From: an uncultured delta proteobacterium | GTDB taxonomy: Bacteria; Desulfobacterota; Binatia; Binatales; Binataceae | Direction: 5' to 3' | DNA length: 64,000 nucleotides | Assembly (NCBI GenBank): GCA_963710455.1 | Contig: CAVQAG010000005.1 | Span: forward strand, 24,020-88,019 | Part shown: in pieces, positions 24,290-45,402 of the stretch | Position numbering within the stretch: position 1 is the first letter of the stretch | How the letters are laid out: each line of letters starts with the position of its first letter | Notes under the pieces: model-generated | What the model was told of the DNA's origin: nothing | What the model saw: the letters and a program-made list of their open reading frames with translations, nothing else | The model's database searches: none | Made by a program: the position numbers and the translations under genes

Positions 24290-24598
24290 TTGTCTATCGA
24301 AACGATCAAAATCGATCCGAACTCGGTTGTAGCCGCGGTTGCGGACCAGGTTTCCTGCGACCTCGAGGGCGAGGCTGCCGTCCTCAATCTCAAGACCGGC
24401 GTCTACTATGGACTCGACGACGTCGGGGCCTCGGTTTGGCGCATGCTCAATGAGCCGCGGCGCGTGGATGAACTGGTCGACGCGCTGCTCGGCGAGTACG
24501 AGGTGGATCGCGAGGAGTGCCAACGCGACGTGATCGCGTTGCTCGGCGAACTCGCCGTGCGCGGGCTGATCGAGATCAAGGACGGGGTCGAGGGCTGA
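24290..24598 (+). CDS. PqqD-family RiPP recognition element (lasso B1), copy 1
   Basis: VSCDLEGEAAVLNLKTGVYYGLDDVGASVWRMLNEPRRVDELVDALLGEYEVDREECQRDVIALLGELAVRGLI. The TTG start is the first start after the upstream stop. Confidence 0.85.
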   Translation: MSIETIKIDPNSVVAAVADQVSCDLEGEAAVLNLKTGVYYGLDDVGASVWRMLNEPRRVDELVDALLGEYEVDREECQRDVIALLGELAVRGLIEIKDGVEG

Positions 24599-24640
24599 GT
24601 GCTGATGTAACTCCAGTAACATCGATGTGGCGGAGGAGGT

Positions 24641-24949
24641 GTGATGGTGGTGGCGCAATTATCGCGAAACTCGGTCGTCGTGGCCTGCGAGGGCAACGCG
24701 TCGCGTGATCTGGAGGGCGAAGCCGGGGTTCTCATCTGCAAGGACGGCACGTACTACGGGCTCGAGGACGTCGGCGCGAAGATCTGGGCGCTCATTGCCG
24801 AGCCCCGCGCCGTAGGCGAGATCTGCGACACGCTGCTCGACGAATACGAAGTCGAGCCGGACGTCTGTGAACGCGACGTGATTGCGCTCGTCGGCGAACT
24901 TACCGCCAAGGGCCTCGCGCAGACCATAGATGCGGCACGCCTCAGTTGA
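24641..24949 (+). CDS. PqqD-family RiPP recognition element (lasso B1), copy 2
   Basis: ASRDLEGEAGVLICKDGTYYGLEDVGAKIWALIAEPRAVGEICDTLLDEYEVEPDVCERDVIALVGELTAKGL. A GGAGGAGG SD lies upstream. It is about 60% identical to copy 1 over the core. Confidence 0.85.
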   Translation: MMVVAQLSRNSVVVACEGNASRDLEGEAGVLICKDGTYYGLEDVGAKIWALIAEPRAVGEICDTLLDEYEVEPDVCERDVIALVGELTAKGLAQTIDAARLS

Positions 24950-24988: not shown

Positions 24989-26770
24989 ATGCGGGGCGGG
25001 CCATTGCGGGCCGGCGGAAACAGGCTTCGGCGGCCTGAAGACCAGTCAGCGAACAAGACCGCTGAGGGACAAGCTTCGGCGAGCGCGCTCGCGTCACTGA
25101 CGGTGTGCGTCGGTGCCGGTTTCGTCCTGGCGTTCACTCCGGTTCTCCTATGGCATCTTAAAACCGGTGACTGGGTCTGCCTAAGCGATTGGTTCAGCCT
25201 CTACTACCTGCGCTTCGTCGCACAAGCGTACTACCATCATGCTCTCTACATAGCCGACATCGTTATGCCGGGCGGCGCCACCACTTATCCGTGGCTTCAG
25301 TTCGTGCCGGCGACCTACGTTGCGCGAGTCTTGGGCGCGGGCCCATTCGCGGTCAACCTCATCTGGACTTTGCTGAGCGCAGTCGGACTCAGCGCAGGCC
25401 TCTATCTCGTTTTCCGGCATTTCCTCGGACGGCCCTGGGTGGCGGCTGGATGTACGATTCTCTGCATCTCAGACTATGGTTTCGCCGCCGCGCGTCCGCT
25501 CACGACTCAGCTTCAAATGCTCGCCTCAGCTCTTTGGCTCCATCCGCGGGGCTTCGTCACGATTCCGTGGGGGCTTCTGTTGCAGTGGCGCATTCCGGAT
25601 CCCGGCCTGAATCTTCCGTTCCTATTCTTTCAGATTGTCGCCCTTGCGCGAGCGCGCGAGCGGCCGACTCGCCTGAACCTGGGGTTTTCCGGACTGATGT
25701 TTGGACTGCTCTTCTACGTGTTTTTTTATTGCTGGACTATGGTGGCGGCCGGACTGGGTATCGCTTTCATGCTCGATCGCGGAGCGCGCAGAGTCTATGC
25801 CGCAACGTTATGCATAGGCGGTGTCATTGGCCTGCCGCAGTTGCTCTATGGCATTCACCTGAATCACCTGCTCTCGCCTGAAGCGATGAGGCGGTTCGGC
25901 CTGTTCACCCCGGCTCCCAGACTTTATGAGAACACTGTACCCACGCTTTCGCTCATTGCCCTGGCGGCGACTGCCTGGTGGATCCGGAAGTCCGAAAGAT
26001 TCGATCTGCTATACGCATGGAGCCTGGTCGCAGCAGGAATCCTGCTTAGCCGCAGCCGCATAGTCAGTGGAATATGTTTTCACGAGTATCACTATGATTG
26101 GCTATGGGCGCCGATTCGAGGCGCGCTGGTTCTGATCGTCGTGCTGAGTATCGTAAATCTGCGGTATCGATGGCGTCCGGCCATCGCCGCGACCTCCTGG
26201 GCGCTGCTGACGCTCTACTTCGCTAGCGGAGTCTACCTTGCCGCTATCTGCATTACCCGCACATCGTTCGGCGTGGCGCAGGTGGAGAATTACGTGCGAT
26301 ACAAGGCGCAGCGCATGTCCGGAGCGGTCGAGCCGCTCGTGCCCGGCGCGACGATCGCGGGCGACGACGGATTTTGCGAGGTGGCTGCGGTTGCCGAAGA
26401 CCAGTGGGTACTGAGCGGCGAGGCCGTTCCAAGAAGCCTGGTGGTTGACAACGATCAGTGGCAGTCGAGAGCGGCGCTCAACGCATACCTGTTGGGAACG
26501 GGCCGCGCGGAGTTTGAAAAGGCTGCGCAATCTGACGCCGAGCATTGGTTCTGGGAGAGACCCGAGCGCCAGCCCCAGGTGCTTGCTGCGTTCATGCGGA
26601 AATATGACGAAGTCGTCCATAACCCCGATCGATTTATCGTTCAATTCGGCGTCCGCTACGTGGCGCTGCCGGTGGACAAGGCCGAAAGTGTTTATGTACG
26701 CGAAGGTTGGACGATGTTTCAGCAGGGGCCCTATTGGCGGATCTGGGAGAGACGAAAATCCCGCCCCTGA
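24989..26770 (+). CDS. large polytopic membrane protein of unknown function, embedded in the lasso cluster
   Basis: 593 aa. Ten or more hydrophobic segments occupy the first 400 aa or so, followed by a roughly 190-aa soluble C-terminal domain. No family motif was recognised by eye. Confidence 0.7.
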   Translation: MRGGPLRAGGNRLRRPEDQSANKTAEGQASASALASLTVCVGAGFVLAFTPVLLWHLKTGDWVCLSDWFSLYYLRFVAQAYYHHALYIADIVMPGGATTYPWLQFVPATYVARVLGAGPFAVNLIWTLLSAVGLSAGLYLVFRHFLGRPWVAAGCTILCISDYGFAAARPLTTQLQMLASALWLHPRGFVTIPWGLLLQWRIPDPGLNLPFLFFQIVALARARERPTRLNLGFSGLMFGLLFYVFFYCWTMVAAGLGIAFMLDRGARRVYAATLCIGGVIGLPQLLYGIHLNHLLSPEAMRRFGLFTPAPRLYENTVPTLSLIALAATAWWIRKSERFDLLYAWSLVAAGILLSRSRIVSGICFHEYHYDWLWAPIRGALVLIVVLSIVNLRYRWRPAIAATSWALLTLYFASGVYLAAICITRTSFGVAQVENYVRYKAQRMSGAVEPLVPGATIAGDDGFCEVAAVAEDQWVLSGEAVPRSLVVDNDQWQSRAALNAYLLGTGRAEFEKAAQSDAEHWFWERPERQPQVLAAFMRKYDEVVHNPDRFIVQFGVRYVALPVDKAESVYVREGWTMFQQGPYWRIWERRKSRP

Positions 26771-26962
26771 TTCGCCGCGTCGTCCCGCGCTCCGGGATTC
26801 GCAATCTCACCATCGAACCTCCATTAGCCGTTCCACAGACGCGCATCCGTCTTGCGCTTGTTGCCTTCGCGCGGTTGCGCACACCGTTCGCAGACAAGAG
26901 TGCCAATAAAAGACGCGAAAGAGCAGGGCAGGAGCAGTTTAACTTTGAAACGACGCACAGCG

Positions 26963-27241
26963 AGGTATTTCGTGCTGAAACCAATGCATTCCGGCTTCTA
27001 TGCAACAACCCTCGAACTTCTTCTTGAGCATCTCCAGGTGAATACTCTGATTTTGACTGGCATCGCCAGCAATATCTGCGTTCTGTTCACCGCCAATGAC
27101 GCCTATATATGCGAGGTTACAAATTGTTCGTTCCGGCCGATTGTGTCGCCGCAAACAGCGCCAAAGAGACCGAGTATTCATTGTTGCAAATGAAGAACGT
27201 TTTGAAGGCAGATATTCGCGAAAGCGGCGAGATCGATTTCG
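26963..27241 (+). pseudogene. isochorismatase/cysteine-hydrolase family relic (C-terminal half only, frameshifted)
   Basis: RYFVLKPMHSGFYATTLELLLEHLQVNTLILTGIASNICVLFTANDAY lies in one frame. MRGYKLFVPADCVAANSAKETEYSLLQMKNVL lies in another. They are joined at a TATATATG dinucleotide repeat (about 27100-27110). No N-terminal half was recognisable. The local GC content drops. Confidence 0.7.
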
Positions 27242-27519
27242 ATGTTTTCGCGGCTACGGATCGTGACGGTCGCAGTCGTGCCCGCCCCGCTACGATGCGA
27301 CGACTTTATACTTTCAAGCGGAGCGCTCTCGAAACCGGTCGAAAACAGGAAAATCCGGCGACCAAATCGCAGGGCCGGCGCGTCGAGCATCGTATCCCGC
27401 AGGCGTCTGCGCGACCGCTCCAAAGACTCATATTGGATTCACGATCGTGCTGGTGTTAGTGTTGTGCGTCATGCTCGAGTACGCACATGCTAAACAGATG
27501 AGCGCCAGCAAGAACCGGG

Positions 27520-27975
27520 ATGGCGCGCCGGCTCGCTAGATTTTTCCATCTCCCATTTCCGGATCAGCGCCTGCTGATGCGGGCTGCGCTGGCCGTGGTC
27601 GGTGCGAAGCTGGCGGTCAGAACTTTGCCCTTGCCCGCCGCGCGTGCGGCTGTTTCTCGCCTGCAACGCCTGGGATGGATAGTCACGCCCACGCCCGCCG
27701 ATCGAATCGTGTGGGCGGTTGAGGCCGCGGGCCGCGCTATCCCCGGCATGAAGAACTGCCTGGTGCAGGCGGTCGCGGCGGAAGCGATGCTCGCCCGCGC
27801 GGGCCATCCGTGCGAGCTGCGAATCGGAGCTGCCAAGAGTGGGCCCAGCGAATTGATCGCACACGCGTGGCTGGAGAACGAGGGTAGAGTGCTCATCGGC
27901 GAGTTCGAGTTCGAGCGTTATACTCCGCTGATCCCGCCTCACCTCCGGCGCGGCACGCCGCCCTCGCAGCCGTAG
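27520..27975 (+). CDS. lasso peptide biosynthesis B2 protein (transglutaminase-like leader peptidase)
   Basis: GMKNCLVQAVAAEAMLARAGHPCELRIGAAK......IAHAWLENEGRVLIGE carries the conserved Cys and His of the B2 family. Confidence 0.9.
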   Translation: MARRLARFFHLPFPDQRLLMRAALAVVGAKLAVRTLPLPAARAAVSRLQRLGWIVTPTPADRIVWAVEAAGRAIPGMKNCLVQAVAAEAMLARAGHPCELRIGAAKSGPSELIAHAWLENEGRVLIGEFEFERYTPLIPPHLRRGTPPSQP

Positions 27976-28002: not shown

Positions 28003-29919
28003 ATGAGCGGAATCGCCGCAGTTTACCATCTTGATGGGCGGCCCGTGGCGCGGGGGCTGGTCGCCGCGATGCTCGACGCGGTCGCCTACCGCGGACCCGA
28101 CGGTCTCGATTCGTGGATCGATGGCCCGGTCGGCCTTGGCCACGCGATGCTGCGCACCACGCCGGAAGCGATGCGCGACAGCCAGCCGCTGGTCGATGAG
28201 CAAAGTGGTCTCGCGCTTACGATGGATGGCCGGGTCGACAATCGCGATGAACTCGCGGCGCTGTTGGAGCGCCAGGGATTGCGGCTCGCCGTCGGCACGG
28301 ATGCGGAAATCGTGCTACGCGCGTACCAATGCTGGGGCGAGGAGGCGCCGGCGAAAATTCTAGGAGATTTTGCTTTCGCCCTGTGGGACAGGCGCAAGCG
28401 CCAGCTCTTCTGCGCGCGCGACTTTGCGAGCGTGCAGCCCTTGTTCTACTACAGCGATGGCCGCAGCTTCATCTGCGCTTCCGAGTTGCATCAGATACTT
28501 GCCGATCCGGAGGTGCCGCGCGAGCCCGACGAGCACGTGGTCGGTATGTACCTGACCGGGATGCTGCTCGATCCGGTCGCCACGCTCTATCGCGACATCC
28601 GCAGACTCGAGGGCGGCTGTTCGATCACGGTGCGGCCGGGCAAGATCGATCGGCGCCGCTACTTCGACATCGATCCTGCAAAGAGAATCCGCTATCGCAC
28701 CGACGCGGAGTACGCGGAGCATTTCGAGTCGATACTCAAGGAAGCGGTGCGATGCAGGCTGCGCAACGTCGACGGTGTGGCGGCGGAACTGAGCGGCGGT
28801 CTCGACTCTTCGCTGATCGTCGGAAACATACGGCGCCTGTTGCGGGAAGGCGCGGCACCCGCTCCGCGGTTCGAAACCTTTTCGATCAAGTTCGACGATC
28901 CGCAGGCCGACGAGCGGAGCTTCATCGAGGACGTGGCCGCGCAGTGGGGGTTGCAGACCAACTGGAGTCCGCCATTCTTCGCGAAGTTTTCCGATTTTAT
29001 GGCGGACATCAGGCGCTATCGCTCCTTCGCCGCCCGCCCGAACTCGGTCATGGACACCTTGATGCATCGCGCGATACGCGAACGGGGATTCCGCGTGGTC
29101 CTGACCGGCCAGGGCGGTGACCAATGGTTCGGCGGCAGTGCGGATTGCTTCGCCGAATTGCTGCGCGGGTTTCGGTTCGTCGAGCTTTTCAGACTGCTGC
29201 GCGAAGAAGCGGCTCATCCGACGCGAGTGCGGCCCGGGCAGGCACCGCTGGCGTTGCTGCTGCGCCGCGCCCTGTGGCCGTTGGTGCCGCCGCGGCCCAG
29301 GCTTTTTATCAACCGCCTGCGTGGCTTGAGATTGGTTCCGCCATTCGCCAACCCCGAGTTCACGCGCAGGCTGGACCTCGAGCGCGCGCGAAACGCTCCG
29401 ACCCGCCGGCTTCGCGGCCTCAGCTTCACGCAGCGAACCATGTATCAGGTTCTCAACCTGGGAATCTCGATTCATTTTGCCGAATTGAACGAACGTGAAT
29501 GTGCGCTCGCAGGTATCGAGGGAAGACATCCGTTCTACGACCGCCGCGTGATCGAATTCGCTTTCGCGATTCCTGAAGATCAGCGATGCCGCCCGGGCGC
29601 AACCAAATACATTTTTCGACAGCCGGGCCGCGGACTGCTACCGGAATCGGTTCGCCAGCGCCGGGATAAGGCTGAATTCTCAAGCCTGCTTGTTCATGGA
29701 TTGAAGGATGTGCTCGAAGCTCTCGGCGGCGAGGACGCCTTCGGCTCGTTCAACGTTGTGCAACGAGGCTGGGTGGATCCGGAACAATTTCGCCTCGTGT
29801 ATCGCGAGCGAATGCGTAACATCGGGTCGGCCAACCTATGGCCTTTGTGGTCGGTGCTGGAGCTTGAGATGTGGTCGAGAGAATGTATGGGTTTCCCCGC
29901 CAGGGCGAAGTCAGACTAG
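28003..29919 (+). CDS. lasso cyclase (asparagine synthetase B-like, C protein)
   Basis: MSGIAAVY has Ser in place of the glutaminase Cys2. GLGHAMLRTTPE, GRVDNRDEL, AEIVLRAY..WGE, GDFAFALWD and the PP-loop ELSGGLDSS are all present. Confidence 0.95.
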   Translation: MSGIAAVYHLDGRPVARGLVAAMLDAVAYRGPDGLDSWIDGPVGLGHAMLRTTPEAMRDSQPLVDEQSGLALTMDGRVDNRDELAALLERQGLRLAVGTDAEIVLRAYQCWGEEAPAKILGDFAFALWDRRKRQLFCARDFASVQPLFYYSDGRSFICASELHQILADPEVPREPDEHVVGMYLTGMLLDPVATLYRDIRRLEGGCSITVRPGKIDRRRYFDIDPAKRIRYRTDAEYAEHFESILKEAVRCRLRNVDGVAAELSGGLDSSLIVGNIRRLLREGAAPAPRFETFSIKFDDPQADERSFIEDVAAQWGLQTNWSPPFFAKFSDFMADIRRYRSFAARPNSVMDTLMHRAIRERGFRVVLTGQGGDQWFGGSADCFAELLRGFRFVELFRLLREEAAHPTRVRPGQAPLALLLRRALWPLVPPRPRLFINRLRGLRLVPPFANPEFTRRLDLERARNAPTRRLRGLSFTQRTMYQVLNLGISIHFAELNERECALAGIEGRHPFYDRRVIEFAFAIPEDQRCRPGATKYIFRQPGRGLLPESVRQRRDKAEFSSLLVHGLKDVLEALGGEDAFGSFNVVQRGWVDPEQFRLVYRERMRNIGSANLWPLWSVLELEMWSRECMGFPARAKSD

Positions 29920-29965
29920 AATCTTATCTTCTTAGAATCTTATCTTCTTAAGAATCTTATCTTCG
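29917..29965. repeat. three tandem 16-17-bp direct repeats starting at the cyclase stop codon
   Basis: TAGAATCTTATCTTCT (29917-29932), TAGAATCTTATCTTCT (29933-29948) and TAAGAATCTTATCTTCG (29949-29965). They are followed by an AT-rich segment up to the precursor SD. Confidence 0.9.
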
Positions 29966-30132
29966 CGAAACTGTCCGTAAAACCTAGCCTTTTTCGTTTC
30001 ATCCTTGATGCCATTTGCTCGTCTTATTTATTTCTTGTTATATCTTGACTCCTCAGCGAAGTTTAAGCATTCTTAGTTAGGCCAACGTTGTCAAAGCTAT
30101 CAGATGACGATGGTAACTATGGAGGAGCCACG

Positions 30133-30303
30133 ATGAGCAAGAAAAGCGAAGGTGCGGCTGCGGAAGTTCGTACGCCGATACGCAAAAAGCCCTACCGCAC
30201 GCCGCGTCTTACCGAGTTCGGTCACGTTGCGAAACTGACCGCCGGAACCGCAGGCACGCATACTGATAAAGGGCATATGTCTAACGAACACGGACAGGGC
30301 TAA
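30133..30303 (+). CDS. lasso peptide precursor (A), 56 aa
   Basis: A GGAGGAG SD lies 5 nt before ATG 30133. The peptide is MSKKSEGAAAEVRTPIRKKPYRTPRLTEFGHVAKLTA/GTAGTHTDKGHMSNEHGQG. The leader matches YxxPxLx3Gx5TxG, with Thr at -2. The core starts with Gly1 and has Asp8 available for an 8-residue macrolactam. The ORF track lists the longer 30088 start. Confidence 0.85.
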   Translation: MSKKSEGAAAEVRTPIRKKPYRTPRLTEFGHVAKLTAGTAGTHTDKGHMSNEHGQG

Positions 30304-30324
30304 TGAGGCTTTGCGGCGCCTCAT
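30303..30324 (+). promoter_or_regulatory. stem-loop immediately after the precursor stop (possible attenuator or mRNA stabiliser)
   Basis: ATGAGGC-tttgcggc-GCCTCAT forms a 7-bp stem overlapping the TAA stop. No U-tract follows. Confidence 0.45.
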
Positions 30325-30850
30325 CCTGTCTCTGGTCCTGAATAAAAACCTGCGGGAGGAGCTACAATTTGTCGTAATCCGGAGAGGCATTGTCTAGAGG
30401 CATTGGTGGCTGCCGCCTCTCGGAACAGCCGAGGAAATTGTCGGAACCGGACGCTCGGGTTGAAATCGGGCGTCCGAACTCGTTGAGGTTGCGCTTCTTC
30501 GTCGCGCTCGAGACTCTCTAGAACGTCCCAATCATCTCTTTAACCATTTATTCTCGCCTCTAGTTTGCGGAGGAACGGAGAGGGGGAGTGGCCATCTACT
30601 GATTACGGGCATATCCCCTCTGAAAGCCACCACCACCGTCGCCAACCAGCCATGGCAGCGGTCGACGAACAGATCTCCAGAAATCCCCGCCTGTTCCTTG
30701 ATCTTTCCCGAGAGTGTAGAATTGCCGTCTGAATCCAGCTAGCGGGTCTGAACGCCCGTAAGCTGAAAGGGCTGCAGGCGGCGCACAATCAAAGCTTCCC
30801 CACAGGCGCGTTCCCGACAGCCACTGCGGTTCCATTACGTCGCCTATGGG

Positions 30851-31825
30851 TTGGCGATCGACTCGGATGTTCCGCTGCCCGAGCTGGAAACCACACAACG
30901 CAAATCATTGCCACTTTTTTCGGGACGTCTGCGGATACGGATGGAGCGCCCGTTAGGGGCGAGCCTGCGCGAGCCGCACGATTGGCTGCTTCAGACAAGC
31001 CTGCCTGACGGGCGGCCGTGGATGTGGGCGGCGCGCCAGGAGCAGGGATTCTTGCTGCGCTACGTCGGTCTTGCCGACTTCGCAGTGAATCCGCGCGGCA
31101 CCGAAATGGTTTTGTTGCACGCCGCGCCGGAGAGCTCGCGCGATACGCTCGGCCACTTGTTGCTCGATCAGGCGCTCCCGATGGTCTTGGGTTTGCACGG
31201 AATTCCTACGCTGCATGCTTCCACCGTGGTGACTCCGCGTGGTGTGTGCGCGTTCCTCGGGCCGGCCGGAGCAGGCAAATCGACATTGGCCGCGAGCTTT
31301 GCGAGCGTTGGCTACCCGGCGCTGGGTGACGACTGCCTCGCAATAAAAGAAGACCGTGGATTATTTGCCATCCCGGCGTACCCGGGCCTGCGTCTGTGGA
31401 CCGATTCAGCCGAATCGCTGTCGACGGATTGGTCCAATGCTCCTGCCGTTGCGCACTACACACGCAAGCGGCGCATCCTGAATGCGCCGGCGGCGCAAAA
31501 GTTTCCCACACGGCCGGTGCGCCTGGCGGCCATCTACTGCATCGCGCGCGAGGCGAGCGAGGACGGGCCAAGCACGACGCCGGTGATCGAATCGCTGCGG
31601 CCCAACGAAGTCTTCCTGCAACTGCTCTCCGCCAGTTTCATGCTCGATATCACCGATCGCTCGGTGCTCACCCGCAACCTGCGCTTCATCGAACGCCTGT
31701 TAAATGCGGTGCCGGTCCGGCGGCTGAGGGTTCCTGACGGGTTTTCGTCGCTGCCCAAGGTACGCGAAGCGGTCCTTAAGGACCTCGGTGCATCGAACCT
31801 TGCCGTCAGTCTCGGCGAAAGATAG
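30851..31825 (+). CDS. HPr kinase/phosphorylase-like serine kinase (lasso-associated kinase)
   Basis: LHASTVVTPRGVCAFLGPAGAGKSTLAASF...LGDDCLAI (P-loop plus GDD). The family-typical N-terminus HYVAYGLAIDSDVPLPEL extends in-frame upstream of the TTG at 30851, with no canonical start back to the stop at 30764-30766. Confidence 0.8.
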   Translation: MAIDSDVPLPELETTQRKSLPLFSGRLRIRMERPLGASLREPHDWLLQTSLPDGRPWMWAARQEQGFLLRYVGLADFAVNPRGTEMVLLHAAPESSRDTLGHLLLDQALPMVLGLHGIPTLHASTVVTPRGVCAFLGPAGAGKSTLAASFASVGYPALGDDCLAIKEDRGLFAIPAYPGLRLWTDSAESLSTDWSNAPAVAHYTRKRRILNAPAAQKFPTRPVRLAAIYCIAREASEDGPSTTPVIESLRPNEVFLQLLSASFMLDITDRSVLTRNLRFIERLLNAVPVRRLRVPDGFSSLPKVREAVLKDLGASNLAVSLGER

Positions 31826-33151
31826 GTGGGCGGCCGAGCGCGGATCGCTAAAGGCGCCGGCGATGCCTTCGTGAATTCCATCGCATCCGTACTCAAATCC
31901 AGCCCGGCCCCGAGCCGCGAAGCTGAGCTTCTGATCTGTTGTGCTACTTCGGTTGCAACGCCCGAGCGCAGCGCACGCGCGCGCGCGATCGTGGATAAGG
32001 GCGTCGATTGGGAGCGCGTCTCGCATATGGCGTCGGTGCAGGCGGTGATGCCGCTGGTTTATCGCTATCTGACCTCCGAACTCGGCGGCACGCTGCCGGC
32101 CGAAGCGACAAGCGGGCTCCGCCGGGCCTTTTACGGCAATTCGGTGCGTAACCTCCATCTCGCACGCGAACTGGTGCGCCTGACAACGCTACTCGAACAG
32201 GGAGGCGTCGAACCGCTGGCGCTCAAAGGGCCGGCGCTGGCGATGGCCGCCTACGGCGCTGTTACGATGCGCCAGTTTAACGACCTCGATCTCCTGGTGC
32301 GCAAAGGCGAAGTCCGGCGAGCGGCCGATATCCTGCTCGCCGCGGGCTATGCGCCGCGCGCCGGATACCGTGTTGCTGACCTGGACCGGCCGGGCGCGTA
32401 TGAAATCGCGATGACGCGGGCGGGCGCCCTGATGGAAATCGATCTTCACTGGCGGCTCATTCCGCCCTATTTTCCACTCGCGCTGGACAGCGAAGATCTG
32501 TGGCGGCGCGCGGTGCGGATCGAGGTTGAAGGTGCCCCCGTGCACACGCTCGCACCTGCCGACCATCTGCTCTATCTCTGCGCGCACGGAGCTAAGCACG
32601 GATGGCAGGCGCTCGGTGGGATCTGCGATCTCGCCGAACTGATTCGCGCGACGTCGCGCGCTTCGGCCCCAACTTCATCGCAATCCTCCTTGCAAGTTCC
32701 CGGTATAGACTGGGATGAGCTCTCGGCGAGGGCCGAGCAGGCGGCTGCGCATCGTGCGCTCGAACTCGGGGTACTACTCGCACACGAACTGCTCGATGCC
32801 GCAGTGCCGTCCGCCATACTGGCGGCGGCGCGCCGCGAGCGCGCGGTGGTGCGCGCCGCCCGGAGCTTCGTCGCTTACGCCAGCGACCCTATCGACGACG
32901 GCCCGGGGTTTTACCAGCGATGGGTGGTGCCGTTGGGCGTGATCGCTGGACCAGGAGCGCGGCTGCGCTATCTTGCCGCACGGGCATTATTGCCGAGCGC
33001 CGACGATCACGAGTTTCTGCGGCTGCCGCTGGCGCTTTATCCACTGTACTATCTGCTGCGGCCGGTGCGGGTGGCGCTGAAGGAGGGTCCTGCCGTCGTG
33101 CGCAGGCTGATGCGTTCGGCGCCGCATCCGGCGGATCATTCATCGCGGTGA
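31826..33151 (+). CDS. nucleotidyltransferase-family protein (uncharacterised NTP_transf type, lasso-associated)
   Basis: LALKGPALAMAAYG....RQFNDLDLLVRKGEVRRAADILLAAGY...EIDLHWRL. The GTG start directly follows the kinase TAG. Confidence 0.75.
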   Translation: MGGRARIAKGAGDAFVNSIASVLKSSPAPSREAELLICCATSVATPERSARARAIVDKGVDWERVSHMASVQAVMPLVYRYLTSELGGTLPAEATSGLRRAFYGNSVRNLHLARELVRLTTLLEQGGVEPLALKGPALAMAAYGAVTMRQFNDLDLLVRKGEVRRAADILLAAGYAPRAGYRVADLDRPGAYEIAMTRAGALMEIDLHWRLIPPYFPLALDSEDLWRRAVRIEVEGAPVHTLAPADHLLYLCAHGAKHGWQALGGICDLAELIRATSRASAPTSSQSSLQVPGIDWDELSARAEQAAAHRALELGVLLAHELLDAAVPSAILAAARRERAVVRAARSFVAYASDPIDDGPGFYQRWVVPLGVIAGPGARLRYLAARALLPSADDHEFLRLPLALYPLYYLLRPVRVALKEGPAVVRRLMRSAPHPADHSSR

Positions 33152-34125
33152 GGAAAGCCCTGGGCAGCTTTATTCACGCGCTGTTCGAGGTGGGTCGCCT
33201 GCGGATCGCCGGCGCGATCGGCTTGATGTTGCTCTTTTCGCTCAGCGAGGGTATGGGGGTCGCACTGCTGCTGCCCATTCTGCAGATCTCCGGCTTCAAT
33301 CTCGGTGGGCAGGGTCCGGTCGGCCGGTATGCCGACGCCATCGCCGCCGCCTTCGAAGCCGTCGGCCTGCATCCGAGCCTGCTGCTGCTACTCATGGTAT
33401 TCGCGGGGCTGGTCGGGACGCGGGCGCTGCTGGGGCGCTGGCAGTCAGTCGCGATGTTCTCGGTGCAACAGAATTTCGGCGCCCGGCTGCGCGATCGCCT
33501 GTACCACGCGATCTCCAACGCCAGCTGGCTTGCGCTTTCGCGGATGCGCTCCTCCGACCTGACTCATGCGCTGACCTCCGAGATCGATCGGGTCGAAGTC
33601 GCCGCCTTCGAGGCGATGATTCTCGCCTCCACCGCGCTGCTGTTCCTGCTCTACCTCGGGATCGCGCTGGCTGTCTCACCCTCAATGACAGCGCTCGCGT
33701 TCGGTTGTGGAATCGTCCTGGTCGCGATGCTGCGCGGGCGCACCGCGCTTTTGCGCGGCTCCGGCGCCGAGCTCTCCGAGCGGATCAAGGCACTCTATGC
33801 CGCAACGGTCGAGCATCTGCAGAGCCTCAAAGCGGCCAAGATGTATGGGGTGCAGCAGCGTAATGCCGACGCCTACGCGGCGCTCAGCCACGAGGTCGCC
33901 CGCGTTAACGTCAATATTGAGCGCCAGCAGGCCGCCACCAATTCGCTGTTCGAGATCGGTTCGGTGATCATTCTGGCCCTCGTGCTTTACGTTTCGATCC
34001 GCGTGCTGGGGGTTTCTCCGATAGCCGTGCTGCTGCTGCTCGCGATGTTTGCGCGAGTGATGCCGCGGGTGGATGACGTGCCATCAACTGTACCAGGAAT
34101 GCCTGCACGCGTTGCCCGCGTTTGA
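33148..34125 (+). CDS. ABC exporter, transmembrane-domain portion (lasso D), separated from the ATPase portion by a frameshift
   Basis: GTG 33148 overlaps the upstream TGA (GTGA). It has six hydrophobic segments (IAGAIGLMLLFSLSEGMGVALLLPIL and others). The frame ends at 34125, whereas homology continues in the frame of ORF 34073. Confidence 0.8.
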   Translation: MRKALGSFIHALFEVGRLRIAGAIGLMLLFSLSEGMGVALLLPILQISGFNLGGQGPVGRYADAIAAAFEAVGLHPSLLLLLMVFAGLVGTRALLGRWQSVAMFSVQQNFGARLRDRLYHAISNASWLALSRMRSSDLTHALTSEIDRVEVAAFEAMILASTALLFLLYLGIALAVSPSMTALAFGCGIVLVAMLRGRTALLRGSGAELSERIKALYAATVEHLQSLKAAKMYGVQQRNADAYAALSHEVARVNVNIERQQAATNSLFEIGSVIILALVLYVSIRVLGVSPIAVLLLLAMFARVMPRVDDVPSTVPGMPARVARV

Positions 34126-35065
34126 AAATGTAATGGCCCTGGCCGCGCGCTGCACGTCGGCGGCCGAGCCGGCGAATGCTCCCGTGCAGACGCTCGAATT
34201 TGGAAACTCGCTCCGCATGGAATCCGTCTCGTTCTCCTATCAGCGCGCGAACGGGGCGGCGCCTGGGAAACAGCCCGGCCGATCCATCGCTGACCGGTCG
34301 CCGTCTGATCACTTTTGGGACCTCCCGCAACGGTCGCCAGCGGTGCACGACCTCGACCTCACCGTTGCGGTGGGCGAGGTGGTGGCGCTGGTCGGGCCGT
34401 CGGGCGCCGGCAAAAGCACGATTGCGGATTTGATGACCGGCTTGCTCGCCCCCGATTCCGGGCGGATCACGATCGACGGGGTCGCGTTGGACGAGACGCA
34501 CGCGCGGGCCTGGCGCGAGCAGATCGGGTACGTCTCCCAGGACACGTACCTGTTCCACGATTCGGTGCGCGCGAACCTGTTGTGGACCCGGCCGGGCGCG
34601 AGCGAGGCCGAGGTGCACCAGGCGCTCGCGATGGCCGCGGCAGAGCAATTCGTCGACGCGCTGCCGGCCGGGCTCGACACCGTGATTGGCGATCGCGGGG
34701 CGACGATTTCGCACGGCGAACGTCAGCGCATCGCGCTCGCGCGCGCGTTGCTGCGCCGTCCACGCCTGCTAATTCTGGACGAGGCGACCAACAGCCTCGA
34801 CGCGCACAACGAGCAGCGGATTCTCGAAGCGATCGAACGGCTGCGGGGCGATCTCACGATCGTGACTATTGCGCATCGGATTGCCGCGGTACGACGAGCC
34901 GATCACATCTACGTCATCGAGGGCGGCACGATCATGGAATCGGGAACCTGGGATGAGCTGTGCGCGCGGGAGCACGGACGCTTTCGCGCGCTATGCGAGA
35001 GCCAGGGAATCGCGCCCGCGCCGACCGCTCCGGCGCGGCAGGCGGCATCTCGCCGGCTCGCTTAG
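34073..35065 (+). CDS. ABC exporter, ATP-binding portion (lasso D)
   Basis: Walker A is LVGPSGAGKST. The Q-loop is YVSQD. The signature is ISHGERQR (a variant of LSGGQ). Walker B is LLILDEAT. The H-loop is TIAHR. The preceding QLYQECLHALPAFENV is the end of the TMD. Confidence 0.9.
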   Translation: MTCHQLYQECLHALPAFENVMALAARCTSAAEPANAPVQTLEFGNSLRMESVSFSYQRANGAAPGKQPGRSIADRSPSDHFWDLPQRSPAVHDLDLTVAVGEVVALVGPSGAGKSTIADLMTGLLAPDSGRITIDGVALDETHARAWREQIGYVSQDTYLFHDSVRANLLWTRPGASEAEVHQALAMAAAEQFVDALPAGLDTVIGDRGATISHGERQRIALARALLRRPRLLILDEATNSLDAHNEQRILEAIERLRGDLTIVTIAHRIAAVRRADHIYVIEGGTIMESGTWDELCAREHGRFRALCESQGIAPAPTAPARQAASRRLA

Positions 35066-37233: not shown

Positions 37234-38699
37234 AGTTTGTGAATATTTGGATTTTTGCGATGGCATCGGCGCGTTGCGAGCGACAGTCACTGATTGGACG
37301 AGGTCAGGTTGTTTAGGCAAAGAGCGCCTGAGGAAGCTGGCGATAGTGGAAGCCTCACAACCAGCCCATTTTGATCGAGCGCATCAGGTTGTAAACCAGC
37401 GCCGACCAGGTCGCGACGATCAGCACCTTGCTGATGCCGCGGACCAGCAAGCGGTCGAGGCCGCGCCAGGTTTTGAGATCGGCGTTGACGGTTTCGGCGG
37501 TGGCGGCCCGCTCCAGGTAGATGCGCTGGCCCTGCGGCGAGCCCATGCGTTTTCGATACTCGGCGATCGCCGCACTGTCGCGGGGCTGCGGGGTGAGCGG
37601 ATCGATGTGATAGGTGCGGTTCTCGCGCGGCGGCACGAACACCTCCACCCCGCGTGCCGCGGCGCGCTCGACCGCGGCAAAGTTCATATAGCCGCCGTCG
37701 GCGAGATGCTGCCTGGGGAGCGCGCCGGTCCGCCGCTCGATCTCATCGAGCATCGGCGCCAACTGCTGGCTGTCGGTCCCAGAGTTGCTCGCCTCGACGC
37801 CCACGATGATCCGGCTTTCGGTGTCAGTAGCGAACTGCAGATTGTAAGCGGGACGGAATCCGCCATCGGCCATCTTCATCACCCGCGCCTCGGGATCAGT
37901 GGTCGAGATGCGGGTTTCAGTTTTGCGCTGCGGATGGTTTTTGGCCTCGGCCTTGTGCGCGCCGAGTTCGCCCAGCCGCGCCACCGCCCGCTGGCAACGC
38001 TCCTCATACTCGCGCGCGGCGCGCAGTTCGGCCGCGCGCTGGCGCGCGCTGCCCTGGGTCGGATCCTGCGCGGCCTCCGCGTCGAGCCGCTCCAGATGCG
38101 CGCGCGCCGCACGCACGCAGGCCTTGAGCCGGGCCTTGCGCCGAAACGACGCCGCCCCCGCGCTCGCCCGCACCCGGGTCCCATCCTGCGCCACCCGGTA
38201 AAGCGTGATCAGATGCTGGTCCAGCAGCAGGCCCAGCACCTGGCTGAACAACTCGTCCAGCGCTGCGCCATGTCGGCTGCGAAAGTCGCTCAGCGTATGA
38301 TAGTTGATGCTCACCCCGGCGCAGATCCAGCGATAGGCCGCGTGCTCGGCGCTGAGCCGCGCGATCTCGCGCGCACTGTTCACGCCTTCGCTCAACCCAT
38401 ACAGCCACAGCGCCAGCAGCATCCGCGGGTCAGTCGCATCGCGTCCCGGGCCGTTCTCGCGCGCCTTGATCGGCGCACAGAACCGGCTCAGGTCGAGCCC
38501 TTCCAGTACCCGCCAAATCGCGCGCACCGGATGCTCGGCACCGGCCAGCTTCTCGTAATCCACGGTTTGCAATATCAACTGCTTACGATCGGGTTCCCGC
38601 AGCCGCACCTCTTCGCCCATCACCTCACCTCCGCCTCTCCACCATCATCCACTTCCCATCCCTCAAAGCGATCCCTGTCCGCAAATAAATTCACAAACT
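37234..38699 (-). mobile_element. IS1182-like insertion sequence (about 1.47 kb) with terminal inverted repeats and a 5-bp target duplication
   Basis: The IR AGTTTGTGAAT lies at 37234-37244, and its reverse complement ATTCACAAACT lies at 38689-38699. The direct repeat CTGAG lies at 37229-37233 and 38700-38704. A single intact transposase ORF lies inside. Confidence 0.8.
37355..38623 (-). CDS. IS1182/IS5-type DDE transposase
   Basis: REPDRKQLILQTVDYEKL...HPVRAIWRVLEGLDLS...GRDATDPRMLLALWLYGLSEGVNSAREIARL...YRWICAGVSINYHTLSDFR...DGTRVRASA...HLADGGY...LYNLMR. The 560-aa + strand ORF 37154-38836 is its antisense shadow. Confidence 0.85.
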   Translation of the reverse strand: MMGEEVRLREPDRKQLILQTVDYEKLAGAEHPVRAIWRVLEGLDLSRFCAPIKARENGPGRDATDPRMLLALWLYGLSEGVNSAREIARLSAEHAAYRWICAGVSINYHTLSDFRSRHGAALDELFSQVLGLLLDQHLITLYRVAQDGTRVRASAGAASFRRKARLKACVRAARAHLERLDAEAAQDPTQGSARQRAAELRAAREYEERCQRAVARLGELGAHKAEAKNHPQRKTETRISTTDPEARVMKMADGGFRPAYNLQFATDTESRIIVGVEASNSGTDSQQLAPMLDEIERRTGALPRQHLADGGYMNFAAVERAAARGVEVFVPPRENRTYHIDPLTPQPRDSAAIAEYRKRMGSPQGQRIYLERAATAETVNADLKTWRGLDRLLVRGISKVLIVATWSALVYNLMRSIKMGWL

Positions 38700-45118: not shown

Positions 45119-45402
45119 GTTTGCGAACAGGGCTCAACAGAGCTCTAACGGCTGAAAACATTCCCTCCTAATGGTCTCAATTTCCCGGGACCTTCGTTTA
45201 ATGGCCTCCTTGGTCTGGTCGCAATCTATTCGGACCAGTGTCATTTCAGCGCACACTATGGCATCCGGTGAAGGAGTAGGGAGGACGTTCGAGACGCGCC
45301 GGCGGCAGTTGGGGTGAAGATTTCGTCGCTAGCGAGTGTAGCAGGTACTTTCCGCCTGACGGCGGCGCCGCTAACTTTATGGATGATCCGATGCGCAAGC
45401 AC

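What the first reader, a model, noticed from the sequence alone, without database searches (positions are those of the whole stretch)
30851..33151. Kinase plus nucleotidyltransferase pair, but the precursor does not end in Ser
Established knowledge: in the characterised kinase-type lasso clusters the HPrK-like kinase phosphorylates the C-terminal Ser of the precursor. In pseudomycoidin the nucleotidyltransferase-family enzyme then decorates that phosphate with hexose.

Seen in sequence: this precursor ends ...NEHGQG. The only hydroxyl residues in the core are Thr2, Thr5, Thr7 and Ser13.

Inference: the kinase must either target an internal Ser/Thr, target the leader, or act on something else. 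That would be a new regiochemistry for this tailoring pair. The kinase also lacks a canonical start codon for its conserved N-terminus (HYVAYGLAIDSDVPLPEL begins upstream of TTG 30851).
Basis: partly seen in the sequence, partly recalled or inferred. Interest (0 to 1): 0.7.

Follow-up and report, generated by a model that had tools for sequence, protein, structure and literature searches.

The report
Lasso cluster with ring-directed kinase

Summary
The window holds a complete split-B lasso cluster. It includes a kinase with an HPrK/PEPCK-like fold, a PF14907 nucleotidyltransferase, and a precursor whose core GTAGTHTDKGHMSNEHGQG ends in Gly.

The missing C-terminal Ser is real and typical of this kinase clade. 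Of 66 precursors next to kinase homologues, one ends in Ser.

The "new regiochemistry" claim is out of date. BsfK, from a Bradymonas cluster with the same gene set, phosphorylates ring Ser3 (Duan 2023). Ser3 lies five residues before the ring-closing Asp. That position is Ser/Thr in 76% of kinase-linked cores and in 4% of kinase-less lasso peptides.

This window carries Ala at that position, and the allele recurs in independent contigs. Thr5 is the only hydroxyl invariant in about 30 orthologues. The actual site (Thr5, Thr2 or none) is open.

The missing start codon is a clade-wide feature, not an assembly error. An invariant ATC (30788) follows a Shine-Dalgarno-like block and a covarying hairpin.

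Two further points. The cluster's unannotated 593-aa membrane protein is predicted to be a GT-C glycosyltransferase. The ABC exporter carries a frameshift.

Verdict: a new variant of a known kind, of moderate interest.

The parts
24290..24598 (+). PqqD-family RRE (B1 copy 1). It is kept next to the luciferase-like oxidoreductase in every orthologous locus, including the reduced ones.
   Evidence: PF05402 at E 4e-21; NF033536 lasso_PqqD at 74 bits. Synteny.
24641..24949 (+). Second PqqD-family RRE (B1 copy 2), 54% identical to copy 1. It is present only in the full clusters.
   Evidence: PF05402 at E 1e-17.
24989..26770 (+). 593-aa polytopic membrane protein, predicted to be a GT-C-fold glycosyltransferase.
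   Evidence: No Pfam hit. AF2 model pLDDT 87.7. The top 25 Foldseek hits in the PDB are all GT-C enzymes: AftA, STT3, PglB, AglB, DPY19, ArnT and others, E down to 3e-7. D90, D162 and D263 are near-invariant. In L010 the homologue overlaps the kinase start.
27520..27975 (+). Lasso leader peptidase B2.
   Evidence: PF13471 at E 5e-20; NF033537 at 82 bits against a cut-off of 33.
28003..29919 (+). Lasso cyclase C (Asn-synthetase-like).
   Evidence: PF00733 at E 8e-47; NF033535 at 460 bits.
30133..30303 (+). Precursor peptide A: 37-aa leader plus 19-aa core GTAGTHTDKGHMSNEHGQG. The predicted ring is G1-D8. Ala3 is codon 30250-30252 and Thr5 is codon 30256-30258.
30303..30326 (+). Hairpin directly after the precursor stop codon; a possible attenuator or 3' stabiliser.
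   Evidence: -10.5 kcal/mol, z = -2.4. Not conserved in position in the orthologues.
30737..30764 (+). Conserved covarying RNA hairpin upstream of the kinase.
   Evidence: Across 21 orthologues 92.6% of cells are paired, 6 of 9 pairs show compensatory changes, and 0 of 500 shuffles reach this. No Rfam match.
30774..30793 (+). Invariant block GCAGGCGGCGCACAATCAAA. It contains a Shine-Dalgarno-like AGGCGG, a 6-nt spacer and ATC (30788-30790), the proposed non-canonical start of the kinase.
   Evidence: The frame upstream is not conserved, and an in-frame TGA sits at 30764.
30788..31825 (+).
   Evidence: 1389 homologues. H143, G158, G161, G163, K164, S165, D181 and D182 are invariant. AF2 pLDDT 89 and a PEPCK/HPrK-type fold. 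BLASTP to BsfK gives E 8e-11.
31826..33151 (+). PF14907 (NTP_transf_5) nucleotidyltransferase-fold protein N. Its GTG start abuts the kinase stop codon.
   Evidence: PF14907 at E 8e-61. The DLD motif (D153, D155) is conserved in 78 of 79 loci. N accompanies K in 62 of 80 genome loci.
33148..35065 (+). ABC exporter D. Its GTG start overlaps the stop of N. One extra base near 34069-34072 splits it into a transmembrane ORF and a nucleotide-binding ORF.

Best explanation
The window holds a split-B lasso peptide cluster from a Binataceae-like uncultured bacterium. The gene order is B1, B1', GT-C, B2, C, A, K, N, D.

**Proposed pathway.**
1. K is an HPrK/PEPCK-fold peptide kinase. With the help of a PqqD-type RRE bound to the YxxPxL leader, it phosphorylates a Ser/Thr inside the future macrolactam ring of the linear precursor. 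This happens before leader removal and cyclisation, as shown for BsfK on Ser3. It does not act on a C-terminal Ser.
2. N then further modifies that phosphate, by analogy with PsmN, which is needed for hexose addition.
3. D exports the product.

**The site in this allele.** The family-typical position, five residues before the ring Asp, is Ala3 here. The acceptor is therefore most likely Thr5, the only hydroxyl invariant in the clade, or neighbouring Thr2.

**Kinase expression.** The kinase is translated from a conserved non-canonical AUC codon at 30788.

**Shown here:** gene identities, fold, catalytic motifs, precursor statistics, and conservation of the start region.

**Inferred:** kinase activity, the site, the chemistry of N, and AUC initiation.
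For: **Cluster identity.** PqqD twice, B2, C, an NF033521-type leader and an ABC exporter are all present.

**Kinase.**
- The His/P-loop Lys-Ser/Asp-Asp motif needed for BsfK and PadeK activity is invariant in 64 homologues.
- The AF2 model has pLDDT 89, and its best PDB matches are PEPCK at E 3e-7.
- It is homologous to BsfK and to kinases of clusters whose precursors end in Ser.

**No C-terminal Ser.** Only 1 of 66 kinase-linked cores ends in Ser, and none of about 30 orthologues does.

**Precedent.** BsfK, from a cluster with K, N, B1, B2, C and D, phosphorylates ring Ser3 of GTSGNEVD.... The reaction is stimulated by B1 and needs the leader.

**Site statistics.**
- Ser/Thr at acceptor -5, the BsfA Ser3 position, occurs in 50 of 66 kinase-linked cores.
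- It occurs in 2 of 51 characterised kinase-less lasso peptides (Fisher p = 3e-16). After collapsing related rings the count is 25 of 39 (p = 3e-10).
- It occurs in 0 of 4 cores that end in Ser.
- Position -3 is also enriched, 47% against 10%.
- Residue 5 is Ser/Thr in every orthologue.

**No sign of decay in K.** Lineage-specific substitutions are 2.3% in K, against 2.2-3.1% in B2, C and N.

**N.** It matches PF14907, its DxD motif is conserved in 78 of 79 loci, and it accompanies K in 62 of 80 loci.

**Start codon.** ATC is invariant in all orthologues. The CTG at 30824 is not conserved. Indels upstream of the conserved block are not multiples of three. An SD-like AGGCGG lies 6 nt upstream. 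The model's first strand (residues 15-19) lies upstream of TTG 30851.
Against: - The family-typical site is Ala in this window. BsfK was strictly specific for residue 3: the S3A variant stayed unmodified and Thr2 was never used.
- The window kinase is no closer to BsfK (26% identity) than to kinases of clusters whose precursors end in Ser (27-29%). Kinase homology therefore does not predict the site.
- No mature product of any ring-phosphorylating cluster has been seen, and the role of N on a ring phosphate is unknown.
- AUC initiation is rare and inefficient in bacteria (my own knowledge). It is inferred here from conservation only.
- The exporter is frameshifted in this assembly.
- Close relatives keep K, and often N and D, without any local cyclase or precursor.
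Confidence: 0.62

Rival explanations
1. The regiochemistry is as strict as in BsfK. The kinase only accepts the residue five positions before the ring Asp. The Ala3 allele of this window therefore yields an unphosphorylated lasso peptide, and K and N are idle or on their way to loss in this strain.
For: BsfA S3A is not phosphorylated and Thr2 is never used. Most orthologues have Ser/Thr3. Position -5 is the most enriched hydroxyl position in the family. The exporter is frameshifted here.
Against: - Ala3 recurs in independent contigs and in a second lineage (P0121 from 3 contigs; P0133).
- Other intact kinase clusters combine Ala, Gly or Lys at -5 with Ser/Thr at -3 (L012, L016, L020, L038, L052, L058).
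- K and N show no excess of lineage-specific changes, and all catalytic residues are intact.
Confidence: 0.2
2. K, with N and D, serves a substrate encoded elsewhere. This could be a precursor from another lasso cluster with a near-identical leader, or a non-lasso target, with K acting in trans through the RRE.
For: - Reduced loci read LLM-PqqD1-B2-K-N-D (L005, L095, L110, L116) or LLM-PqqD1-K (L096, L099, L102, L104). They keep full-length K without a local cyclase or precursor.
- Leaders of different clusters in these genomes are very similar.
- Several clusters can sit on one contig: L005 and L079 share one, and L004 has two precursors.
Against: In 56 of 80 genome loci a precursor lies next to K on the same strand, with C in 65 and N in 62. 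None of those precursors, and nothing else in the window, offers a C-terminal Ser either.
Confidence: 0.1
3. The kinase gene is a pseudogene, or the odd features (no start codon, Gly terminus, Ala3) are assembly errors. The true system would then be a PadeK-type C-terminal Ser kinase.
For: - There is no ATG, GTG or TTG before the conserved N-terminus.
- The exporter has a one-base frameshift.
- The published PsmA sequence once wrongly ended in Asn instead of Ser because of a single-base error.
Against: - The start-less configuration, with its invariant ATC and block, occurs in 26 orthologous loci from independent assemblies.
- The ...HGxG end is conserved in about 30 orthologues.
- The ORF is intact with all catalytic residues, and the model is confident.
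- Ala3 is seen in other contigs.
Confidence: 0.04

Closest known systems
bsf lasso cluster of Bradymonas sediminis FA350 (BsfK/BsfN; Duan et al. 2023, PMC10368454)
   Same: - The gene set is the same (A, B1, B2, C, D, K, N).
- Neither precursor ends in Ser.
- The cores start alike: GTSG... in BsfA, GT[ST]G... in the orthologues, GTAG... here, all with a G1-D8 ring.
- The kinase catalytic motif is the same.
- The mapped site, Ser3 (acceptor -5), is the most conserved hydroxyl position in the window's kinase family.
   Different: - The kinases share only 26% identity.
- The leader has Thr(-2) here, not Ile(-2).
- Residue 3 is Ala in this window.
- This cluster adds a second RRE and a predicted GT-C glycosyltransferase.
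- The kinase has no canonical start codon.
- The host lineage differs (Binataceae-like).
- No mature product is known for either cluster.
Paeninodin, pseudomycoidin and SyanA systems (PadeK, ThcoK, PsmK, SyanK; PsmN)
   Same: They have an HPrK-like precursor kinase with the His-Lys-Asp-Asp motif acting on the linear precursor. PsmN belongs to the same broad family of uncharacterised nucleotidyltransferases, and it is required for hexose addition to the phosphate.
   Different: Their defining substrate feature, a conserved C-terminal Ser, is absent here and throughout this clade.
Davasins / IgtG (PMC11912497)
   Same: A lasso peptide glycosylated on a Ser by a membrane-bound glycosyltransferase encoded in the cluster.
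   Different: IgtG is a GT2-family enzyme that uses UDP-glucose and acts on the mature lasso peptide. The protein here is predicted to have a GT-C fold, whose known members use polyprenyl-phosphate sugars outside the cytoplasm. It sits alongside a kinase and PF14907 pair.
HPr-rel-A system (TIGR04352 HprK-related kinase A, TIGR04353 PqqD-like chaperone)
   Same: It combines an HPrK-related kinase with a PqqD-family chaperone.
   Different: Scores fall far below the family cut-offs (19.4 against 200, and 22.3 against 35). That system has no lasso B2, C or A genes.

Membership tests
Lasso peptide biosynthetic cluster (split-B type) | Precursor with a YxxPxL...T(-2) leader, a small N-terminal core residue, and Asp/Glu at core position 7-9. 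| tested here: met
   Y(-17), P(-14), L(-12) and T(-2) are present, with G1 and D8. NF033521 scores 22.9 bits against a cut-off of 19.
Lasso peptide biosynthetic cluster (split-B type) | A PqqD-type RRE, a transglutaminase-like B2 peptidase and an Asn-synthetase-like cyclase. | tested here: met
   PF05402 (twice), PF13471/NF033537 and PF00733/NF033535.
Lasso precursor kinases (HPrK-like: PadeK, ThcoK, SyanK, PsmK, BsfK) | Conserved His, G-x-x-G-x-G-K-S P-loop and Asp-Asp motif. | tested here: met
   H143, G158, G161, G163, K164, S165, D181 and D182 are invariant in a 64-sequence alignment.
Lasso precursor kinases (HPrK-like: PadeK, ThcoK, SyanK, PsmK, BsfK) | HPr-kinase/PEPCK-type P-loop fold. 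| tested here: met
   AF2 pLDDT 89 and pTM 0.88. Foldseek top hits are PEPCK at E 3e-7 with probability 1.0. A profile search of PDB sequences finds the PEPCK P-loop region at E 0.003 and HPr(Ser) kinase 3tqf at E 0.65. That HPrK/P shares this fold with PEPCK is my own knowledge.
Lasso precursor kinases (HPrK-like: PadeK, ThcoK, SyanK, PsmK, BsfK) | Sequence homology to a characterised member. | tested here: met
   BLASTP to BsfK gives E 8e-11 at 26% identity. Kinases of clusters whose precursors end in Ser give E 1e-16 to 1e-17.
Lasso precursor kinases (HPrK-like: PadeK, ThcoK, SyanK, PsmK, BsfK) | ATP-dependent phosphorylation of the precursor peptide. | not testable with these tools
   This needs an enzyme assay.
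PadeK/PsmK-type C-terminal Ser phosphorylation | The precursor ends in a conserved Ser. | tested here: not met
   The core ends ...HGQG followed by TAA TGA. None of about 30 orthologues ends in Ser, and 1 of 66 family cores does.
BsfK-type ring phosphorylation | The precursor has no C-terminal Ser, and the cluster contains K, B1, B2, C and D (with or without N). | tested here: met
BsfK-type ring phosphorylation | Ser/Thr at the mapped site (core residue 3 of an 8-residue ring, i.e. acceptor -5). | tested here: not met
   The window has Ala3 (GCA, 30250-30252). Most orthologues have Ser/Thr3, and 76% of the family has Ser/Thr at -5.
PF14907 NTP_transf_5 (PsmN-like tailoring protein) | Pfam model match and a nucleotidyltransferase Asp-x-Asp metal motif. 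| tested here: met
   206 bits against a cut-off of 31.2. The DLD motif at 153-155 is conserved in 78 of 79 loci. PsmN D134/D136 are essential. Whether these two motifs are equivalent was not checked by alignment.
PF14907 NTP_transf_5 (PsmN-like tailoring protein) | Adds hexose to the peptide phosphate. | not testable with these tools
   This needs MS of products with and without N.
GT-C glycosyltransferases (for the 593-aa membrane protein) | A polytopic GT-C fold with a conserved acidic residue in the first extracytoplasmic loop. | tested here: inconclusive
   The fold is met: the top 25 Foldseek hits are all GT-C enzymes at probability 1.0 and TM about 0.5. D90 is present in 40 of 41 sequences in the first long loop. 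Topology and catalytic role were not verified, and there is no Pfam match.
HPr-rel-A system (TIGR04352/TIGR04353) | Scores above the NCBIfam cut-offs. | tested here: not met
   19.4 bits against 200 for the kinase, and 22.3 against 35 for PqqD1.

The most novel reading that the evidence does not exclude
The cluster makes a lasso peptide whose Thr-rich ring is phosphorylated at a position other than the one mapped for BsfK (Thr5, acceptor -3, or several ring hydroxyls). The phosphate is then built into a phosphoglycosyl decoration by the PF14907 protein together with a cluster-encoded GT-C-fold glycosyltransferase. This would be the first RiPP pathway to recruit a lipid-linked-sugar, extracytoplasmic type of glycosyltransferase. 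In addition, kinase output would be deliberately throttled by a conserved AUC start codon behind a structured 5' leader.
Probability: 0.2. Interest if true: 0.7.

Novelty: new variant of a known kind. Interest (0 to 1): 0.45.

Why it matters
Only one ring-phosphorylating lasso kinase has been studied. Its final product, and the role of the accompanying nucleotidyltransferase, are still unknown.

- **Scale.** The same logic applies to a large uncultured clade, with over 1,300 kinase homologues, mostly from Binataceae and Nitrospira.
- **A testable rule.** The analysis gives a sequence rule for the site: a hydroxyl five residues, or three, before the ring Asp.
- **Natural variants.** Ala3 alleles occur naturally and could discriminate between candidate sites.
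- **A possible glycosyltransferase.** If the predicted GT-C enzyme and the PF14907 protein act on the phosphorylated ring, the product would be a new type of decorated lasso peptide.
- **Annotation.** The conserved ATC start matters in practice. Gene callers truncate or miss this kinase; many database entries are 289-295 aa rather than about 345.

Tried and rejected
- **CTG 30824 as the start.** It aligns with the ATG of homologue P0007, but the codon is CTA, CTT, CCA, GCG, ACT, AGT or AAT in orthologues. Rejected.
- **TTG 30851 as the start.** It would delete the first beta-strand of a confident model. Rejected.
- **Predicting the site from kinase phylogeny.** The window kinase, BsfK and the kinases of clusters whose precursors end in Ser are all about equally distant, 24-30% identity. 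Uninformative.
- **Gene-specific decay of K or N in the window lineage.** None was found.
- **Rfam search of the A-K spacer.** No match.
- **Promoter and terminator scan of 29850-30900.** Nothing was found. A conserved TGTAAAAT-like stretch upstream of the hairpin was not pursued.
- **Sequence searches for the 593-aa membrane protein.** Pfam, NCBIfam and PDB sequence searches gave nothing. Only the structure comparison was informative.
- **PDB sequence search for N.** Nothing was found.
- **The contig of the 97%-identical membrane-protein homologue.** L126 ends before the precursor, so it could not confirm the Ala3 or exporter sequence.
- **A second precursor in the window.** The only extra regex hit, at 45182, is spurious.
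Full report
**1. What is at the coordinates**

The region 24.3-35.1 kb is a single plus-strand operon-like cluster. In order, it contains:
- two PqqD-family RREs (24290-24598 and 24641-24949);
- a 593-aa membrane protein (24989-26770);
- the B2 leader peptidase (27520-27975);
- the Asn-synthetase-like cyclase (28003-29919);
- a 56-aa precursor (30133-30303);
- the kinase-like ORF;
- a PF14907 nucleotidyltransferase (31826-33151, E 8e-61);
- an ABC exporter (33148-35065).

The precursor leader has Tyr(-17), Pro(-14), Leu(-12) and Thr(-2), so the core is GTAGTHTDKGHMSNEHGQG with a predicted G1-D8 ring. The kinase frame is open from 30767. It holds no ATG, GTG or TTG before TTG 30851, which lies inside the conserved YGLAIDSD motif.

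**2. Source and relatives**

The kinase has 1389 homologues at E <= 1e-5 among the candidates scored. A scan of one genome per species returned 80 loci. Nearly all come from Binataceae/"delta proteobacterium" MAGs and from Nitrospira, and the best three are 88-89% identical. A metagenome scan added 42 closer loci. In these loci the kinase sits with a cyclase in 65 of 80, a PqqD protein in 55 of 80 and the PF14907 protein in 62 of 80. The K plus N pair inside a lasso cluster is therefore the rule for this clade.

**3. The kinase is a real, intact member of the lasso precursor kinase family**

The catalytic set shown by mutagenesis to matter in BsfK and PadeK is a His, the G-x-x-G-x-G-K-S P-loop and Asp-Asp. 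It is invariant in a 64-sequence alignment as H143, G158, G161, G163, K164, S165, D181 and D182, numbered from ATC 30788.

An AlphaFold model built on that alignment is confident (pLDDT 89, pTM 0.88). Its best PDB matches are PEP carboxykinases (E 3e-7, probability 1.0), the fold that HPr kinase shares (my own knowledge). A profile search of PDB sequences hits the PEPCK P-loop region and, weakly, HPr(Ser) kinase.

BLASTP links it to BsfK (E 8e-11, 26% identity). It also links to kinases from a Paracoccus plasmid cluster and a Paenibacillus cellulosilyticus cluster, both with precursors that end in Ser (E about 1e-17). All of these are roughly equidistant, so kinase similarity does not indicate the phosphorylation site.

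**4. The missing C-terminal Ser is real and is the norm here**

I extracted precursors next to kinase homologues using the leader motif. Of 66 cores only one (L067) ends in Ser. Twenty-six end in Leu (almost all as Cys-Leu) and 21 in Gly. About 30 orthologues of this window's precursor all end ...HG-x-G, or ...HGQ in one case.

The pseudomycoidin paper records that PsmA was once mis-sequenced as ending in Asn. Conservation across independent assemblies rules out that explanation here. No other precursor-like ORF is present in the 64-kb window.

**5. The "new regiochemistry" is already published**

Duan et al. 2023 (PMC10368454) studied the bsf cluster of Bradymonas sediminis, which has the same gene set (A, B1, B2, C, D, K, N). 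Its precursor ends in Asp. BsfK phosphorylates core Ser3 of GTSGNEVDGSTPADRGNNPGD. The reaction needs the leader and is strongly stimulated by the RRE BsfB1. S3T is accepted, but S3A is not modified and Thr2 is never used. The mature product and the role of BsfN were not determined. A search for later work on BsfK found nothing further.

**6. A family-wide rule, and where this window departs from it**

BsfA Ser3 lies five residues before the ring-closing Asp.

| Set of cores | Ser/Thr at acceptor -5 |
|---|---|
| Kinase-linked, this family | 50 of 66 (76%) |
| Same, one per distinct first four residues | 25 of 39 |
| Characterised lasso peptides without a kinase (table in PMC12427821) | 2 of 51 (4%) |
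| Cores that end in Ser | 0 of 4 |

Fisher's test gives p = 3e-16 for the full set and p = 3e-10 for the collapsed set. Position -3 is the second most enriched, 47% against 10%. The sequences are phylogenetically related, so these p-values overstate independence, but the contrast is large.

In the window's own orthologue group the ring reads G-T-[ST]-G-[ST]-x-[ST]-D. The window has Ala at residue 3 (GCA, 30250-30252). This is not an isolated error. P0121 is 98% identical, comes from three contigs, and has the same GTAG. P0133, a different lineage, has GTAGTSMD. P0122 has GASG.

Across all orthologues only residue 5 is invariantly Ser/Thr, and at least one of residues 2 and 3 is always Ser/Thr. 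Other intact kinase clusters also combine a non-hydroxyl residue at -5 with Ser/Thr at -3: L012 GGAGT, L016 GRAGS, and L020, L038, L052 and L058.

My reading is that the kinase targets a ring hydroxyl. In this allele Thr5, or Thr2, is the likely acceptor. The rival is a strictly residue-3-specific kinase facing an unphosphorylatable natural variant. It remains credible, and I give it about 0.2.

**7. The start-codon problem**

Of 107 kinase loci that could be evaluated, 30 have no canonical start between the upstream stop and the conserved N-terminal strand. Twenty-six of those are this window's orthologues. The evidence for ATC 30788 as the start is as follows:
- An ATC is invariant 19-20 codons before the Tyr of YGLAIDSD (window 30788-30790). 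It sits inside an invariant 20-nt block, GCAGGCGGCGCACAATCAAA, with an SD-like AGGCGG 6 nt upstream.
- The CTG at 30824 corresponds to the ATG of one homologue, but it is not conserved.
- Upstream of the block, indels are not multiples of three and in-frame stops occur. Downstream, indels are whole codons.
- The model's first beta-strand (residues 15-19, FHYVA) lies upstream of TTG 30851.

Just upstream is a hairpin (30737-30764) with strong covariation: 92.6% of cells are paired, 6 of 9 pairs carry compensatory changes, and 0 of 500 shuffles reach this. It has no Rfam match.

The simplest reading is initiation at AUC behind a structured leader, which would give low kinase output. This is inference from conservation only. 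A second kinase sub-clade shows a similar conserved ATC/ATA without a consistent canonical start. Many database entries for this kinase are 289-295 aa because gene callers picked internal starts.

**8. No sign of kinase decay, but the cluster is evolutionarily unstable**

Lineage-specific amino-acid changes in the window are similar in B2, C, K and N, at 2.2-3.1%.

The exporter carries one extra base near 34069-34072 relative to L001. This splits the transmembrane and ATPase halves. Whether it is real or a long-read error cannot be decided here.

Close relatives show a deletion series: LLM-PqqD1-B2-K-N-D, and LLM-PqqD1-K, without cyclase or precursor but with full-length K. This keeps a trans-acting role for K on the table.

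**9. The nucleotidyltransferase**

N matches PF14907, and its Asp-x-Asp motif (D153, D155) is conserved in 78 of 79 loci. In pseudomycoidin, PsmN is a member of a family of uncharacterised nucleotidyltransferases. It is required for one or two hexoses on the Ser phosphate, and a double Asp mutant is inactive. By analogy N would decorate the ring phosphate. This has not been tested in any ring-type cluster.

**10. An unexpected cluster member**

The 593-aa membrane protein has no family match and only 59 homologues. A confident model (pLDDT 87.7) matches only GT-C-fold glycosyltransferases among its top 25 hits. These include AftA, STT3/OST, AglB, PglB, DPY19, AftD, ALG9 and ArnT, with E down to 3e-7. 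Near-invariant acidic residues include D90 in the first long loop.

In the divergent locus L010 its homologue overlaps the kinase start. I found no report of a GT-C enzyme in a lasso or RiPP cluster. The known lasso glycosyltransferase IgtG is a GT2 enzyme that uses UDP-glucose.

This raises the possibility that the hydroxyl-rich ring is glycosylated or phosphoglycosylated. That is speculative.

**11. Verdict**

The inference of an internal target is well supported. The novelty claim is not, because ring phosphorylation by a K plus N lasso cluster was shown in 2023.

The window holds an uncharacterised variant of that kind, with four distinctive features:
- Ala at the family-typical site;
- an invariant Thr5;
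- a conserved non-canonical start region for the kinase;
- a predicted GT-C partner.

I rate interest as moderate.

Noticed in passing
window 24989-26770 (+): The unannotated 593-aa membrane protein of the cluster is predicted to have a GT-C glycosyltransferase fold. Its best matches are AftA, STT3, PglB, DPY19 and ArnT. I found no report of a GT-C enzyme in a lasso or RiPP cluster.
   Followed up: yes
window 30737-30793 (+); same element in L001-L006 and L081-L119: A covarying hairpin is followed by the invariant 20-nt block GCAGGCGGCGCACAATCAAA, which holds an invariant ATC. This is a likely non-canonical start and 5' regulatory leader for the kinase. There is no Rfam family for it.
   Followed up: partly
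window 34065-34075 (+): One extra base relative to L001 splits the ABC exporter into a transmembrane ORF (to 34125) and an ATPase ORF (from ATG 34073). It could be a real frameshift or an assembly error.
   Followed up: partly
L005, L095, L110, L116 (LLM-PqqD1-B2-K-N-D); L096, L099, L102, L104 (LLM-PqqD1-K): Close relatives keep a full-length kinase, here with a canonical GTG or ATG start, but have lost the cyclase, the precursor, the second PqqD and the GT-C gene. This could be a deletion series or trans-acting modules.
   Followed up: partly
L012, L019, L022, L027, L028, L032, L033, L036, L039, L043, L048, L049, L051-L053, L060, L062, L065, L068, L077-L080: About 25 kinase-linked lasso cores from Nitrospira and Binataceae end in a conserved Cys-Leu, often after a Met/Gly-rich tail. 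This suggests a further, undescribed C-terminal feature or modification.
   Followed up: no
L123 (Bacillus thuringiensis plasmid pBT62A, NZ_CP044979.1) 3287-7824: Three tandem precursor genes have Cys-rich cores ending in Cys. They lie next to a kinase homologue, a thioredoxin-like ORF and a MauE/DoxX protein, upstream of PqqD, B2 and C. This is another kinase-linked lasso cluster without a C-terminal Ser.
   Followed up: no
window 26852-27459 (+): Two overlapping short ORFs carry fragments of an isochorismatase-family domain between the GT-C gene and B2. They look like a frameshifted remnant inserted in the cluster.
   Followed up: no
window 24290-24949 (+): There are two tandem PqqD/RRE genes, 54% identical. 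Only the first is retained in the reduced loci. The second travels with the GT-C, cyclase and precursor module, which hints at separate partners for the two RREs.
   Followed up: no
window 30304-30736 (+): The precursor-kinase spacer is about 460 nt here and in L001 and L003, against about 100 nt in other orthologues. The extra sequence is not conserved between them.
   Followed up: partly
window 37355-38623 (-): A DDE transposase (IS element) lies 2.3 kb downstream of the cluster.
   Followed up: no
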